In this document: positions 1 through 60,664 of the stretch, piece by piece
How the letters are laid out: each line of letters opens with the position of its first letter
How positions within the stretch are numbered: the stretch's first letter is position 1
Assembly: GCA_050250895.1 (NCBI GenBank)
Contig: JBFWNU010000001.1
Coordinates: forward strand, 2,532,891-2,596,890
Length of the DNA: 64,000 nt
Origin: Vulcanimicrobiota bacterium
Lineage (GTDB): Bacteria; Vulcanimicrobiota; Xenobia; Xenobiales; JADMJV01
Reading direction: 5' to 3'
Position numbers and translations under genes: made by a program
The notes under the pieces: model-generated
The model's database searches: none
The model's input: the letters and a program-made list of their open reading frames with translations, nothing else
Told to the model about the DNA's origin: nothing

Positions 1-1087
1 CCTGCGTAGCCGTGAGGCTCGGCCCGCCCGGTTCGACCGGGCGGCCCTGCGCGCCCGCAAGGCGCTCAAGGAGCTTTACGCTACTCTGCATGTGCGTCCC
101 GACCCTCGAGCTGACGCTATCCTGTTCAAAGCCGAGCCTCCGGCCGACAGCCTGGCCTTCCAGGTGAGGGCCCTGGCCAAGGCCGAGACGGGTGCCGAGC
201 AGGCCGACGTGATTCGCAAGTCTCGCATTCCTTACCCGGTGGCTATCGGTGCTCTCACCAAGCTGTCTCCCATCGTGGTGGCGGCTCTGGTCGAGAACAT
301 GAGCCCCACCGAGGTAATCAACAACATGAAATCGCTCCAGAGCCGGGGTGCCCTTGATGACGTCATGGTCAGGGCGCTGGTCGATAAGAAGCTCGAGGAG
401 GCCAAGAACGACGGGCGCGTCTCGGCGTTCAAGGCCAAAGTGGCCAATCAGGTCGCCAAGCTCGGTGCGGGTATTGCCCGGGCCCTCGAGGACATTACCG
501 ACCGACAGATCAAGCGCAAGGGACGCATCACCCGGCCCACGGCTCTCCTGGTCGACAAATCTGCGTCGATGGACGCCGCCCTCGAAGTGGGTAAGCGCAT
601 CGCCTCGCTGATCTCGGCAATCGCCGAGAGCGAGCTGGTGGTTTACGCCTTCGACAACGTGGCTCACCCTCTGGTTGCGAAAGGCAACACCGAGGCGGCC
701 TGGGCGCGTGTTTTCGATGGCCTCAGGGCAGACAATTGCACCAGTATCGGTGCCCCTGTGGCGGCCATGGAGAAGGCGGGCCAGAAGGTCGAGCAGATCA
801 TTCTGGTCACCGACGAGGGAGAGAACACCGTTCCCTACTTCGTTCCCGCCTACGAGCGTTACCGCCAGCGCTTGCAGACGGCGCCCAACGTGGTGATCGT
901 CAAAGTGCAGGCGAGCGACCACCTGGAGCGGCAGATTCGCCAGGCGAAGATTCCGCTGGAGACTTTTACCTTCAGCGGCGACTACTACGCCTTGCCGAAC
1001 CTGATTCCGCTTCTGACTCGCCCTTCGCGGCTGGAGCTCTTGATGGAGATCCTCGAGACGCCCCTGCCGCGCAGACCCGTGGCCTGA
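1..1087 (+). CDS. TROVE/Ro60-like helical domain + vWA protein, paralog 1 (5' truncated by window edge)
   Basis: Frame is open from position 2 (LRSREARPARFDRAALRARKALKELYATLHVRP) and aligns with the 1936-3345 protein. MIDAS motif DKSASM, plus later T and TD residues. The C-terminus [26 protein letters not shown] is shared with paralog 2. Confidence 0.8.
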   Translation, partial: LRSREARPARFDRAALRARKALKELYATLHVRPDPRADAILFKAEPPADSLAFQVRALAKAETGAEQADVIRKSRIPYPVAIGALTKLSPIVVAALVENMSPTEVINNMKSLQSRGALDDVMVRALVDKKLEEAKNDGRVSAFKAKVANQVAKLGAGIARALEDITDRQIKRKGRITRPTALLVDKSASMDAALEVGKRIASLISAIAESELVVYAFDNVAHPLVAKGNTEAAWARVFDGLRADNCTSIGAPVAAMEKAGQKVEQIILVTDEGENTVPYFVPAYERYRQRLQTAPNVVIVKVQASDHLERQIRQAKIPLETFTFSGDYYALPNLIPLLTRPSRLELLMEILETPLPRRPVA

Positions 1088-1158
1088 GCTGTCGTTCCGG
1101 CCGCGGTGACAGGGGCGGGAGAGCAATCTCCCGCCCCGTTCCCCGGCCGGGCGACGGT
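1088..1158 (+). other. Long GC-rich hairpin with GCAA (GNRA) tetraloop
   Basis: GGGGCGGGAGA(1112-1122)-GCAA-TCTCCCGCCCC(1127-1137), extended by CCGGCCG/CGGCCGG and GCTGTCG/CGACGGT. No U-tract follows. Confidence 0.6.
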
Positions 1159-1214
1159 AACAACGGTCTCTTTAGAGTGCCGGCACACGGCCTTGTTTTC
1201 GTCCCTGAGTCCTT

Positions 1215-1455
1215 GGACCGGTAGCTCAGCGGTTAGAGTGCTGCACTGTTGAGGGTGACGCAGACAGGGTCTCCCGTCGCCAGACGTGCCCTTCTTCCGC
1301 CATGCGGACCGTCGCTTCTTGGGAAGTAGAACTAGCTACTACCGCAAGAAGACGCCAATCCGCCTGTCGAAAGAATTGCTACGTCTGGCTCGGTCCGACC
1401 CCGTCAGCGGCCCCCTATGCAGAAGTCGTGGGTTCGAATCCCATCCGGTTCGCCA
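1215..1455 (+). ncRNA. tRNA-like RNA (GTT at the anticodon position, G73, encoded CCA) with a ~165-nt hairpin in the anticodon loop; candidate Y-RNA-like partner of the Ro60-like proteins
   Basis: Acceptor GGACCGG(1215-1221)/CCGGTTC(1445-1451)+G+CCA; D arm GCTC-AGCGGTTA-GAGT; anticodon stem CTGCA(1241-1245)/TGCAG(1418-1422); variable AAGTC; T arm GTGGG-TTCGAAT-CCCAT. Insert ~1251-1416 folds as nested helices. Confidence 0.85.
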
Positions 1456-1576
1456 AAGAAACACTGGAAAACAGATTGGAGGAGATAATCGGCCCGGGTC
1501 CGCGCCCGGGCCTGGTCCATTTCTCTAGAGTAGATCGGTGGCCGGCCTCGAAAGCCGGCACTCTAGGAGGTGAGAG

Positions 1577-5161
<3,585 letters not shown>

Positions 5162-5165
<4 letters not shown>

Positions 5166-59293: not shown

Positions 59294-60664
59294 ATGCAGA
59301 TTCCCACCAACGCCAACCACAACTCGATCCAGTTTCGCATGGTCGCTTTTAGCTTCCAGTCCAACCCTACGCCTGCCGTCGGTTCCAGCGACGGCTGGGG
59401 CAAAGGCTGGTCAGGGCGGACCGGTCGCGCCCTGGGCGGCCTCGAACTGGCTCGTCAGTTCTTGCAGGGCGGCCAGACTCGCCCCGACCTCTCGGGCCTC
59501 AGACAAGCCCTCGAGCAGCTGGGTCGCGGGCTAGCCGATTTCGCTGGCTCGTGTCACTGCTCGCACTCGGCTGCTCGGCCCAACCAGGCTCCGCCGGCCA
59601 ACGACGCGCCAACGCCGAACCAGGCGCCGAAAGCCAACCAGGCTCCCGCGGCCAACCACGCGCCAGCGCCGAACCAGGCGCCGCCGGCCAACTGCGCCCC
59701 CGCAGCCAATCAGGCTCCGGCAGCCAATCAGGCTCCCGCGGCCAACGACGCGCCCACGCCGAACCAGGCGCCGAAAGCCAACCAGGCTGCCGCGGCCAAC
59801 CACGCGCCAGCGCCGAACCAGGCGCCGAAAGCCAACCAGGCTCCCGCGGCCAACCACGCGCCAGCGCCGAACCAGGCGCCGAAAGCCGACCAGGCCCCGG
59901 CCGCCAACTACGCCCCGGTGGCCAACGAGGCGCCCAAGCCCAAGGCCGTCCCCTATCAAGAGCCCGAGCAGACGGGCAAGACCTGGGATGTCTGGTTTGA
60001 CCACCGCGACGGACAAGAGACCGACCGCCGTTCCCCCATCGTGCTTGACCTCAACGGCAACGGCAAAGCCGATATCACCGGCCAGAACGTGCTGGGCGAC
60101 GGCAAGATCACGGGACCGACCACGAAGTTCGATATCGATCCCACCCGCAACTCATATGAATACAAGAGCAACAGCGAAGCCCGCCGCAAGCTGAAAGACC
60201 GGGCCAAGGGCGAGGGCGGACGCTGGGAAGGCGACAAATACTACGGCCGCTCTGACAAGGTGCAGGGCGAGCTCAAATCGGACGGCCTCTATCACTACGG
60301 CAAAGTGGAAGAGCGCGAAGAGACCGAGTGGCTGGCCAAAAATGGCGGCGACGGCTTCTTGACCTGGGACGTCGACGGCAATGGCAAGATCGAGAGCAGC
60401 AAAGAACTCTTCGGCGAGTTCGATGTCGACGGAACCAAGAAATACTCTCACGGCTATCAGAAGCTGGCCGAGCATTTTGACGCCGACCATAACGGAGTGG
60501 TGGCCGGAGACGAACTGGCGGGCCTGACGGTATGGAAAGACGGCAATGCCGATGGTGTTACGCAAGAGGGTGAGCTTCTTGGCCTGCAAGAACTGGGCAT
60601 CACCTCGTTTGACGTGTCCAACATCAACCAGGCCGATATGAGCTCATCCTACACCTATCGCTAG
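59294..60664 (+). CDS. Protein with Pro/Ala/Asn tandem repeat and C-terminal EF-hand-like Ca-binding domain
   Basis: AGGAGG SD; PIVLDLNGNG, DVDGNG.I.SSKELFG, DADHNG and W.D.N.DG...GEL. Confidence 0.8.
   Translation: MQIPTNANHNSIQFRMVAFSFQSNPTPAVGSSDGWGKGWSGRTGRALGGLELARQFLQGGQTRPDLSGLRQALEQLGRGLADFAGSCHCSHSAARPNQAPPANDAPTPNQAPKANQAPAANHAPAPNQAPPANCAPAANQAPAANQAPAANDAPTPNQAPKANQAAAANHAPAPNQAPKANQAPAANHAPAPNQAPKADQAPAANYAPVANEAPKPKAVPYQEPEQTGKTWDVWFDHRDGQETDRRSPIVLDLNGNGKADITGQNVLGDGKITGPTTKFDIDPTRNSYEYKSNSEARRKLKDRAKGEGGRWEGDKYYGRSDKVQGELKSDGLYHYGKVEEREETEWLAKNGGDGFLTWDVDGNGKIESSKELFGEFDVDGTKKYSHGYQKLAEHFDADHNGVVAGDELAGLTVWKDGNADGVTQEGELLGLQELGITSFDVSNINQADMSSSYTYR
59578..59935 (+). repeat. 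Coding tandem repeat: 18-bp units (xN[QHD]AP[AKT]) in 54-bp higher-order blocks
   Basis: gccaaccaggctcccgcg-gccaaccacgcgccagcg-ccgaaccaggcgccgaaa repeated with variants, about 20 units. Confidence 0.9.

What the first reader, a model, noticed from the sequence alone, without database searches (positions are those of the whole stretch)
1291..1398. Y-RNA-type Ro-binding motif inside the rod, on the strand predicted by the permutation model
Seen: GTCGAAAG at 1366-1373 lies opposite CTTCTTCCGCCA (1291-1302) in a bulged helix. GGCTCGGTCCGA (1387-1398) also resembles the vertebrate Y RNA 5' sequence GGCUGGUCCGA. Known: bacterial Y RNAs carry GNCGAAN(0-1)G on the 5' strand of the Ro-binding stem, which in YrlA is the strand leading into the T arm. 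Inference: here the motif sits on the strand leading into the T arm, as expected if this RNA and YrlA are circular permutants. Two motif-like sites could serve the two paralogous proteins. Short motifs can occur by chance.
Basis: partly seen in the sequence, partly recalled or inferred. Interest (0 to 1): 0.7.

Follow-up and report, generated by a model that had tools for sequence, protein, structure and literature searches.

The report
tRNA-shaped RNA with rod, beside Ro60-like genes
Between two copies of a Ro60-like gene lies a real, conserved gene for a tRNA-shaped RNA whose anticodon loop is replaced by a long hairpin, but the two short "Ro-binding" motifs spotted in that hairpin cannot be told from chance matches with the data at hand.

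Summary

They sit in a 168-nt rod that replaces the anticodon loop of a tRNA-shaped gene, 1215-1455, which encodes its own GCCA end. The gene lies between two 59%-identical proteins that I confirmed as divergent Ro60. Both motifs are on the rod strand that runs into the T arm. That strand corresponds to the 5' strand of YrlA.

Support for a binding role is weak:
- GNCGAAN0-1G turns up in 15% of shuffled rods; GGUCCGA in 2.4%.
- I found no orthologue of the rod.
- RNAs beside 83 homologous protein genes show no strand bias for the motif: 41 sense, 53 antisense. They carry other, strongly conserved boxes that the rod lacks.

Strain variants show compensatory changes in the anticodon-like stem and no listed change in the rod. 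The RNA is therefore functional, but the motifs are not singled out.

Verdict: a real RNA and a new variant of the Y-RNA / tRNA-mimic kind. GUCGAAAG is probably chance. GGUCCGA remains an open lead.

The parts
2..1087 (+). Ro60-like paralogue 1. The window holds its C-terminal 361 aa; the gene starts 335 nt before the window, at G000:C1:2532556.
   Evidence: ORF. 59% identical to paralogue 2 over 359 aa. Full length located. VWA_2 match is weak.
1111..1137 (+). G+C-rich hairpin just after the stop codon of paralogue 1.
   Evidence: Sequence. Aligned as a perfect hairpin in the sub-threshold BjrC68 match. No T tail; the simple terminator scan found nothing.
1215..1455 (+). tRNA-shaped RNA gene. 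Acceptor stem 1215-1221 / 1445-1451; D arm 1224-1239; anticodon-like stem 1241-1245 / 1418-1422; T arm 1428-1444; encoded G-CCA 1452-1455.
   Evidence: Rfam tRNA 44.5 bits (gathering score 29) with a 168-nt insert. ARAGORN with introns allowed reports tRNA-Asn(gtt) i(38,165). Fold z -5.95. Compensatory changes at pairs 1242-1421 and 1243-1420 in strain variants.
1246..1251 (+). Six unpaired bases, CUGUUG, where the 5' side of an anticodon loop would be; they display GUU.
   Evidence: Follows from the covariation-supported stem 1241-1245 / 1418-1422 together with the rod base AGGG 1252-1255 / CCCU 1413-1416.
1252..1416 (+). Rod: a 165-nt imperfect hairpin with its tip at 1330-1335. It has four pyrimidine-rich internal loops: 1256-8/1410-2, 1272-3/1394-6, 1290-1/1376-7 and 1309-10/1357-8.
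   Evidence: Helix list. Single copy in the 9.5-Mb genome. No listed difference in the strain-variant contigs.
1291..1302 (+). Rod 5' strand facing the first motif.
1366..1373 (+). GUCGAAAG, a match to the YrlA motif GNCGAAN0-1G.
   Evidence: Chance level: 15% of rod shuffles. No sense-strand enrichment beside homologous genes.
1387..1398 (+). GGCUCGGUCCGA, holding GGUCCGA (1392-1398) across a 2x3 internal loop.
   Evidence: Present in 2.4% of rod shuffles. GGUCCGA is named as the Xenopus Ro60 contact in Chen 2014.
1523..1569 (+). Hairpin whose 3' arm covers the GGAGG (1566-1570) of the small ORF. Its arm 1554-1565 is also the exact complement of leader 1173-1184.
   Evidence: Read directly from the sequence. 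Not tested further.
1577..1936 (+). Small ORF of 119 aa with a signal-peptide-like start. Its TAG stop overlaps the GTG start of paralogue 2.
   Evidence: No Pfam or NCBIfam match.
1936..3345 (+). Ro60-like paralogue 2, 469 aa: a helical-repeat ring followed by a vWA domain.

Best explanation
Window 1215-1455 encodes a functional non-coding RNA. It has a complete tRNA shell: acceptor stem, D arm, 5-bp anticodon-like stem, variable loop, T arm and an encoded GCCA end. Its anticodon loop is interrupted by a 165-nt bulged rod.

The gene sits in a locus built around divergent Ro60 proteins and tRNA-like Y RNAs. The most likely role is that of a Y-RNA-like partner. The rod, standing where the Ro-binding stem of YrlA stands (an extension of the anticodon stem), would hold one of the Ro60-like rings. 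The tRNA-shaped head, matured like a tRNA, would engage a tRNA-binding factor.

Shown here: the gene, its fold, purifying selection with compensatory changes, the Ro60 nature of the neighbours, and the strand geometry.

Inferred only: that the rod binds the protein, and where. Of the two motifs, GUCGAAAG is best read as a chance match. GGUCCGA, at a 2x3 internal loop nearer the tRNA core, is an untested candidate.
For: RNA gene and fold
- Rfam tRNA scores 44.5 bits over model positions 1-71, with the insert in the anticodon loop.
- ARAGORN finds it only when introns are allowed.
- The fold has z -5.95.

Selection
- DNA contigs of a strain variant were laid on the region. X1 record 1 covers 800-1522 with 25 substitutions and 2 insertions. 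X2 record 19 covers 1076-1432 with 8 substitutions and 2 insertions.
- Inside the RNA the listed differences are only 1241 C>U, 1242 U>C, 1243 G>A, 1420 C>U and 1421 A>G.
- These turn U-A into C-G, G-C into A-U, and C-G into U-G in the stem 1241-1245 / 1418-1422.
- No difference is listed in the rod. The flanks 800-1214 carry 15 listed substitutions and 2 insertions.

Libraries
- RNA-library contigs cover 1229-1435 (X11, one whole 207-nt contig, 1 difference) and 1121-1299 (X12).

Neighbours
- They are Ro60-like.

Family habit
- Model R1 gave 180 tRNA-like matches in 99 loci holding homologues. 174 are on the + strand. 5 of the 6 on the - strand lie in loci where the gene itself is on the - strand.
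- Permuted YrlA-order units lie upstream of paralogue 1 in this genome and in the same-genus genome.

Geometry
-.

Not an ordinary tRNA
- The rod is single-copy.
- The genome has its own ordinary tRNA-Asn(GUU) elsewhere.
Against: - No orthologue of the rod RNA was found. blastn in 60 relatives gave only pieces of 35 nt or less, mostly the T arm. nhmmer on 43 loci gave nothing below E 0.1. ARAGORN with introns found no other tRNA-shaped gene with a rod in its anticodon loop in L031-L136; its other intron calls are of different build or join neighbouring units.
- The same-genus genome carries both paralogues but no such RNA on that contig.
- The rod lacks the two boxes that mark the RNAs of this protein family. 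The best matches of the 5'-box matrix are 3.3 bits at 1285 (rank 162 of 127,980 positions in the window) and -1.8 bits at 1389 (rank 834). There is no ACUUGYG in the RNA.
- Binding was not tested by any means.
- Five substitutions of X1 record 1, and one each of X2 record 19 and X11 record 11, are not listed. Those of X1 could lie in the rod.
- Contigs from RNA libraries do not prove transcription.
- The simple scan found no promoter or terminator in 1000-2000.
Confidence: 0.55

Rival explanations
1. GUCGAAAG (and perhaps GGUCCGA) is the Ro-binding site, carried on the strand equivalent to the 5' strand of YrlA. The two sites would serve the two paralogues.
For: - The motif matches GNCGAAN0-1G exactly.
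- It lies on the T-arm-ward strand.
- GGUCCGA is the Xenopus Ro60 contact sequence and occurs in only 2.4% of rod shuffles. Both motifs together on the 3' half occur in 0.065% of shuffles.
- Both are kept in the strain variants.
- Phage phiLo Ro60, the closest solved bacterial-type relative by sequence, binds RNAs picked by a CGAA motif (PMC12135203, passages).
Against: - The first motif is expected in 15% of shuffled rods.
- The probabilities are post hoc.
- The variants keep the entire rod, so they say nothing about the motifs in particular.
- In 83 upstream regions of homologous genes (104,279 nt) the motif is no commoner on the sense strand (41) than on the antisense strand (53). GGTCCGA is present in 1 of the 83.
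- This protein clade's RNAs conserve other boxes.
- In the vertebrate helix one C is bulged (recalled); here UCC faces UC.
- The rod has four similar pyrimidine-rich loops, so resemblance at any one of them is weak evidence.
Confidence: 0.15
2. An intron-bearing tRNA-Asn-like gene. Bases 1252-1416 would be removed to leave the 7-nt loop CUGUUGA and a decoding, chargeable tRNA.
For: - ARAGORN places the insert exactly between positions 37 and 38. This leaves C32 U33 GUU G37 A38.
- The discriminator is G, as in the genome's own tRNA-Asn.
- The CCA end is encoded.
Against: - Rfam reports no group I or group II intron, at gathering score or at E up to 10.
- The junction is a 6x1 loop, not two 3-nt bulges around a 4-bp helix.
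- Bacteria are not known to have the splicing endonuclease (stated in Wang 2018, passage).
- The genome already has a tRNA-Asn(GUU).
- Position 37 would be G.
- The rod is under selection as sequence.
- An RNA-library contig runs unbroken from 1229 to 1435, and no joint is listed that skips the rod.
Confidence: 0.07
3. A tRNA mimic that acts without the Ro60-like proteins. It could be a decoy or inhibitor for a tRNA-binding enzyme or an anticodon nuclease. Or it could be a cis element controlling the small ORF and paralogue 2 downstream.
For: - Leader 1173-1184 is the exact complement of 1554-1565. That segment is also the arm of the hairpin covering the ribosome-binding site of the small ORF.
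- An RNA-library contig starts at 1121, upstream of the tRNA 5' end.
- Homologous loci carry arrays of 20 or more tRNA genes.
- Earlier notes of this scan describe anticodon-less tRNA look-alikes with rods in phages that have no Ro60 nearby (unchecked).
Against: - The RNA is placed between two Ro60-like genes on the same strand.
- The family habitually carries tRNA-like RNAs just upstream of the gene.
- No nuclease or defence gene was identified next to it. Only the four ORFs in 1-5165 were scanned.
Confidence: 0.18

Closest known systems
YrlA, the bacterial Y RNA of Salmonella and many other bacteria (Chen et al. 2014, PMC4201824; Wang et al. 2018, bioRxiv 10.1101/312249)
   Same: - Encoded beside, and on the strand of, a Ro60 homologue.
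- Has a tRNA-like module with canonical D and T arms.
- A long bulged helix extends from the anticodon-stem position.
- A GNCGAAN0-1G match lies on the strand that leads into the T arm.
   Different: - YrlA is circularly permuted: its ends are in the long stem, its acceptor stem is closed by a loop, and it has no free CCA.
- Here the order is that of a normal tRNA, the acceptor stem is open with an encoded GCCA, and the long helix is closed at its tip.
- No Rfam YrlA or Y_RNA match.
- The motif lies 42 nt, not about 10-15 nt, before the YUAY-like CUAU (1415-1418).
Mycobacterium smegmatis YrlA (Chen et al. 2014)
   Same: A Y RNA whose acceptor-like stem is a real RNase P substrate and which ends in CCA after processing (passages).
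   Different: There the CCA end arises by cutting a permuted precursor. Here the gene is laid out so that ordinary tRNA end-processing would give one continuous molecule.
Boxed tRNA-like units beside the same Ro60-like family
   Same: Same protein family as neighbour, same strand, tRNA-like D and T arms.
   Different: - Those units are closed by their own 5'/3' stem, which carries the boxes CGCGCCCYRAC...RAAGCY-UACAYAC and GCUUU...RACUUGCGCG.
- The window's RNA has neither box and no closing stem of that kind.
Metazoan Y RNAs and D. radiodurans Yrn1
   Same: GGUCCGA, the Xenopus Ro60 contact sequence, is present. A longer likeness to the vertebrate 5' end GGCUGGUCCGA rests on recall.
   Different: - In Y RNAs the sequence sits at the 5' end, in a helix formed with the 3' end, with one bulged C (recalled).
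- Here it is internal, on the 3' strand of a closed rod, across a 2x3 loop.
Anticodon-less tRNA look-alikes with rods in phages
   Same: A tRNA shell with the anticodon loop replaced by a closed rod.
   Different: Those are in phages with no known partner. This one is chromosomal and lies between two Ro60-like genes. I did not examine those sequences.

Membership tests
YrlA-type bacterial Y RNA | Encoded within about 4 kb of a Ro60 orthologue, on the same strand | tested here: met
   128 nt after paralogue 1 and 481 nt before paralogue 2, all on the + strand. Ro60 nature shown.
YrlA-type bacterial Y RNA | 5' and 3' ends pair to form the stem that holds the Ro60 site | tested here: not met
   The ends pair as a 7-bp tRNA acceptor stem, and the long helix is a closed hairpin.
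YrlA-type bacterial Y RNA | GNCGAAN0-1G near the 5' end, conserved among orthologues | tested here: inconclusive
   - One match at 1366-1373, on the equivalent strand.
- At chance level.
- No orthologue in which to test conservation.
- Not enriched beside homologous genes.
YrlA-type bacterial Y RNA | tRNA-like module in the order T, closed acceptor hairpin, D; no free CCA | tested here: not met
   The order is acceptor, D, anticodon-like stem, T, acceptor, with GCCA encoded.
YrlA-type bacterial Y RNA | Match to the Rfam covariance model (accession RF02553, taken from scan notes) | tested here: not met
   No match at gathering score in the window or at E up to 10 in 1100-1600. A model of a permuted RNA could not align this order in any case.
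Metazoan-type Y RNA | Conserved bulged helix with GGUCCGA on the 5' strand, formed by the RNA's two ends; Rfam Y_RNA model | tested here: not met
   The heptamer is present but internal, on a closed rod, across a 2x3 loop. No Rfam Y_RNA match.
tRNA | Cloverleaf with conserved D and T loop bases and a 7-bp acceptor stem | tested here: met
   Rfam tRNA 44.5 bits against a gathering score of 29. Stem 1241-1245 / 1418-1422 is supported by two compensatory changes.
tRNA | 7-nt anticodon loop able to read a codon | tested here: not met
   168 nt lie between the two strands of the anticodon stem. Plain ARAGORN finds no tRNA.
Boxed tRNA-like RNAs of this Ro60-like clade | 5' box CGCGCCCYRAC and 3' box RACUUGCGCG forming the unit's own closing stem | tested here: not met
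   The matrix built from 60 units gives at most 3.3 bits in the RNA, against 14.7 bits for a unit upstream in the same genome. There is no ACUUGYG in 1215-1455 (read).
Bacterial tRNA with a self-splicing intron | Group I intron core within the anticodon loop | tested here: not met
   No intron family in Rfam at gathering score or at E up to 10. The insert folds as one rod.

The most novel reading that the evidence does not exclude
This is a Y RNA in unpermuted tRNA order. It would be one continuous molecule that is matured like a tRNA (RNase P, CCA end). It shows a GUU triplet in a bulge and has a G discriminator like tRNA-Asn, so it may even be charged. Meanwhile its rod would carry a metazoan-type GGUCCGA site, and perhaps a second CGAA-type site, that docks one or both Ro60-like rings. 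That would link Ro60 directly to a CCA-ended, possibly aminoacylated tRNA mimic.
Probability: 0.12. Interest if true: 0.75.

Novelty: new variant of a known kind. Interest (0 to 1): 0.4.

Why it matters
All described YrlA-type Y RNAs look like circularly permuted tRNAs without a free CCA end. Wang et al. 2018 raised the possibility that some might be processed into more tRNA-like forms.

A gene that already has the tRNA order, an encoded CCA end, and a rod in the place of the Ro-binding stem would be the missing counterpart. It would also give a simple test object: one RNA, two paralogous Ro60-like proteins, and two candidate sites.

The motif claim itself is what needs the bench. On present evidence it adds little beyond the location of the gene.

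Tried and rejected
Search for orthologues of the rod
- blastn in 60 relatives plus the own genome: matches in 27 of 61 genomes, but every match outside G000 is 35 nt or shorter, mostly query 203-241, the T arm.
- nhmmer on 43 loci: nothing below E 0.1.
- Phage records: one 31-nt match to a tRNA-His.
- ARAGORN with introns on L031-L136: its other 'intron' calls (L035, L041, L059, L071, L118/L119, L127) are of different build or join neighbouring units. They are not rods in an anticodon loop.
- The metagenome scan with the protein gave no relative above 64% identity.

My own tRNA model
- R1 cannot span long inserts. It scored the window's RNA only in part (22.2 bits), so it cannot show that such RNAs are absent.

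MITE or repeat
- Rejected: the sequence is single-copy in the genome.

Derived from the genome's tRNA-Asn
- Rejected: the shell is no closer to it than to other tRNAs.

Family boxes hidden in the rod
- The position matrix gave no significant match.
- I then considered that boxes pair across the spacer between units, which would give the window's topology. The outer 4 nt pair within a unit (3.03 of 4, n=77), not across the spacer (1.98, n=41; random 2.04). Idea rejected.

Scan for single rods upstream of 83 homologues
- Rods lie between units in L063 and L066, and there is a G+C-rich structure upstream of the same-genus paralogue 2. None is embedded in a tRNA shell.

Other Ro60-like loci of this genome
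- The two further loci (L104, L105) have no boxes or tRNA-like RNA upstream.

Rfam 'evalue' runs
- They did not return the split tRNA match that the gathering run found, so they are blind to insert-bearing forms.

Promoter and terminator scan
- Nothing found.

Read laying
- The RNA-library contigs leave 1458-1927 uncovered in X11 and X12. I draw no conclusion from that.

Not attempted
- Complex prediction takes no RNA chains, so it was not used.
- Supplements of Chen 2014 (the lists and alignments of 254 species) could not be seen. They may already include RNAs of this clade.

Full report
WHAT IS THERE

The finding's letters are exact. GTCGAAAG is at 1366-1373, CTTCTTCCGCCA at 1291-1302 and GGCTCGGTCCGA at 1387-1398.

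They lie inside a gene that Rfam's tRNA model matches over its whole length: 1215-1452, 44.5 bits against a gathering score of 29. The match has 168 nt inserted in the anticodon loop. Plain ARAGORN finds nothing. With introns allowed it reports tRNA-Asn(gtt) with a 165-nt insert after position 37.

The shell is canonical:
- a 7-bp acceptor stem, 1215-1221 / 1445-1451
- D arm, T arm and variable loop AAGUC
- G plus CCA encoded at 1452-1455

The RNA folds at -112.6 kcal/mol, z -5.95, and 0 of 200 shuffles fold as well. The insert is one long imperfect hairpin. GGUCCGA spans a 2x3 internal loop, UCC 1394-1396 against UC 1272-1273.

THE NEIGHBOURS

The ORFs at 2-1087 and 1936-3345 are 59% identical. 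Pfam sees only a weak vWA domain and NCBIfam sees nothing.

A profile of 31 family members hits human Ro60 (5.7e-09), Thermus phage phiLo Ro60 (6.5e-07), Xenopus Ro (1.9e-04) and D. radiodurans Rsr (0.0048). An AlphaFold model of paralogue 2 has mean pLDDT 85.8. Its 12 best Foldseek matches in the PDB are all Ro60 over the full length, best E 1.9e-13, TM 0.71. The two proteins are therefore short, divergent Ro60 homologues. The genome holds four such genes.

IS THE RNA REAL?

Contigs from public runs were laid on 800-2200. A strain variant appears in two DNA runs.
- X1 record 1 covers 800-1522 with 25 substitutions and 2 insertions.
- X2 record 19 covers 1076-1432 with 8 substitutions and 2 insertions.

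Inside the RNA the listed differences are 1241 C>U, 1242 U>C, 1243 G>A, 1420 C>U and 1421 A>G. In the stem 1241-1245 / 1418-1422 these change U-A to C-G and G-C to A-U (two compensatory pairs) and C-G to U-G. This supports the cloverleaf stem over the slightly different MFE pairing.

No difference is listed in the rod, while 800-1214 carries 15 listed substitutions and 2 insertions. There is a caveat. Five substitutions of X1 record 1 and one of X2 record 19 are not listed by the tool. So for X2 at most one change can lie in the rod, and for X1 up to five could.

Two RNA-library contigs cover the gene: X11, a whole 207-nt contig over 1229-1435 with 1 difference, and X12 over 1121-1299. This is presence in RNA libraries, not proof of transcription.

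The rod is single-copy in the genome. The genome has an ordinary tRNA-Asn(GUU) elsewhere. The shell is not a copy of it.

THE GEOMETRY ARGUMENT

Chen et al. 2014 (section 6 read; passages) place GNCGAAN0-1G near the 5' end of YrlA. It is followed by a conserved YUAY, the V region, the T arm, the acceptor-like hairpin and the D arm. Wang et al. 2018 (passages) state that the Ro60 module extends from the anticodon-stem position and that YrlA lacks a free CCA.

In the window's RNA the rod extends from the same position, and its 3' strand is the one that runs into the T arm. Both motifs are on that strand.

The same genome also carries units in true YrlA order just upstream of paralogue 1, outside the window. 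One of them resembles the acceptor region of a permuted tmRNA, with ACCA in the loop (sub-threshold, 26.8 bits). The same-genus genome has the same units.

CHANCE

GNCGAANG occurs 84 times and GNCGAAG 129 times in the window on both strands. The genome-wide density of GNCGAAN0-1G is 1.17e-3 per position.

In 20,000 dinucleotide shuffles:
- GNCGAAN0-1G appears in 15.4% of rods and in 7.9% of 3' halves.
- GGTCCGA appears in 2.4% of rods and in 0.9% of 3' halves. It occurs 9 times in the window.
- Both together on the 3' half appear in 0.065% of shuffles.

These numbers are nominal. The motifs were chosen after reading the sequence, and several Ro-related words could have been accepted.

CONSERVATION

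I could not find an orthologue of the rod.
- blastn in 60 relatives returns only tRNA-sized pieces.
- nhmmer on 43 loci gives nothing.
- Phage records give one tRNA-His piece.
- ARAGORN with introns on all fetched loci finds no other tRNA-shaped gene with a rod in its anticodon loop; its other intron calls are of different build or join neighbouring units.
- The closest protein relatives are 70% identical (same genus) and at most 65% elsewhere.

The strain variants keep both motifs, but they keep the whole rod, so they do not single the motifs out.

WHAT THE PROTEIN FAMILY'S OTHER RNAs SHOW

Homologous genes were fetched from cyanobacteria, Acidobacteriota, Eremiobacterota-type genomes, a planctomycete and metagenomes. 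They are nearly always preceded, on the same strand, by tRNA-like elements, and in some loci by arrays of 20 or more tRNA genes.

In 83 non-redundant upstream regions (104,279 nt), one search gives:
- GNCGAAN0-1G: 41 sense, 53 antisense
- GGTCCGA: present in 1 of the 83 regions
- AGCTTACA: 63 sense, 2 antisense
- TACATAC: 77 sense, 5 antisense

Aligning 60 distinct units gives a 5' box, CGCGCCCYRAC-N4-5-RAAGCY-UACAYAC. 110 sites give a 3' box, GCUUU..RACUUGCGCG; its core ACTTG[CT]G occurs 109 times sense and 7 antisense. The 4 nt outside CGCGC / GCGCG pair within a unit (3.03 of 4, n=77) but not across the spacer (1.98, n=41; random 2.04). Each unit is thus closed by its own 5'/3' stem with a conserved internal loop, as in a Y RNA.

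None of these loci hit Rfam's YrlA or Y_RNA models at gathering score (25 loci).

The window's RNA has neither box. The 5'-box matrix scores at most 3.3 bits (position 1285, rank 162 of 127,980 window positions) and -1.8 bits at 1389. A unit upstream in the same genome scores 14.7 bits.

So this Ro60 clade appears to recognise something other than GNCGAAN0-1G, and the rod carries neither that clade's boxes nor a demonstrably conserved YrlA motif. A five-letter overlap does exist: CCGAC occurs in 14 of 60 family boxes and at 1395-1399. The 2x3 pyrimidine loop at GGUCCGA also recalls the family's CCY / UU loop. But the rod has four such loops, so this is a lead, not evidence.

READING

The RNA is real and under selection. 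It is best placed as a new layout of the tRNA-mimicking Y-RNA kind: normal tRNA order, open CCA end, closed rod where YrlA has its Ro-binding stem. That it binds the Ro60-like proteins is inferred from position and from family habit only.

GUCGAAAG is most likely a chance match. GGUCCGA is unusual enough to test.

Rivals:
- A spliced tRNA-Asn-like gene. This is unlikely: there is no intron family, no bulge-helix-bulge, the genome has a second tRNA-Asn, and an unbroken RNA-library contig runs through the rod.
- A tRNA decoy or a cis-regulator of the downstream small ORF. The leader 1173-1184 is the exact complement of 1554-1565, which is part of a hairpin covering the ribosome-binding site.

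The scan has noted anticodon-less tRNA look-alikes with rods in phages before (unchecked notes), but not this sequence.

Noticed in passing
L107 3700-4260 (G000:C1, just upstream of the window) and L106 2830-3160 (same-genus genome): Three tandem tRNA-like units lie upstream of paralogue 1. Two are framed by conserved boxes and closed by their own stem (for example a 9-bp stem in the first unit). One has T arm, acceptor strand, ACCA and the complementary strand, like a permuted tmRNA precursor (Rfam tmRNA_permuted 26.8 bits, below threshold).
   Followed up: partly
L031-L136, up to 1.3 kb upstream of each homologous gene: There is a strongly conserved pair of boxes: 5' CGCGCCCYRAC..RAAGCY-UACAYAC and 3' GCUUU..RACUUGCGCG. 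They frame tRNA-like modules that come both in normal and in permuted order. Rfam's YrlA or Y_RNA models did not match at gathering score in the 25 loci scanned.
   Followed up: partly
L059, L062, L064, L067, L068, L071, L118/L119: Arrays of about 10 to 26 tRNA genes lie directly upstream of the boxed units and the Ro60-like gene, on the same strand.
   Followed up: no
L043 5953-6035: An 83-nt match to the GTPase-associated region of 23S rRNA (model positions 1077-1160, 55.1 bits, E 1e-13) stands alone about 540 nt downstream of the Ro60-like gene of a cyanobacterium. It may be an rRNA-fragment mimic.
   Followed up: no
window 1173-1184 and 1523-1569: The leader segment is the exact complement of 1554-1565. 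That segment is also the 3' arm of a hairpin covering the GGAGG of the small ORF (ATG 1577). The two pairings exclude each other and could form a switch.
   Followed up: no
window 1577-1936: A 119-aa ORF with a signal-peptide-like start and no family match. Its stop overlaps the GTG start of paralogue 2 (TAGTG), so the two are probably translationally coupled.
   Followed up: no
L107 3375-3572 and L106 2551-2753: A conserved ORF of about 65 aa precedes the tRNA-like units in both genomes of the genus. In several other loci a different conserved gene follows the Ro60-like gene (L079, L081, L093 downstream regions).
   Followed up: no
L063 3576-3745 and L066 about 400-570: Very stable rods of about 110-130 nt, built of short GTGAC-type repeats, sit between one unit's 3' box and the next unit's 5' box.
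   Followed up: partly
window 59626-59885: GCCGAAAG recurs at 59626, 59770, 59824 and 59878, the last three 54 nt apart. This suggests a tandem repeat.
   Followed up: no
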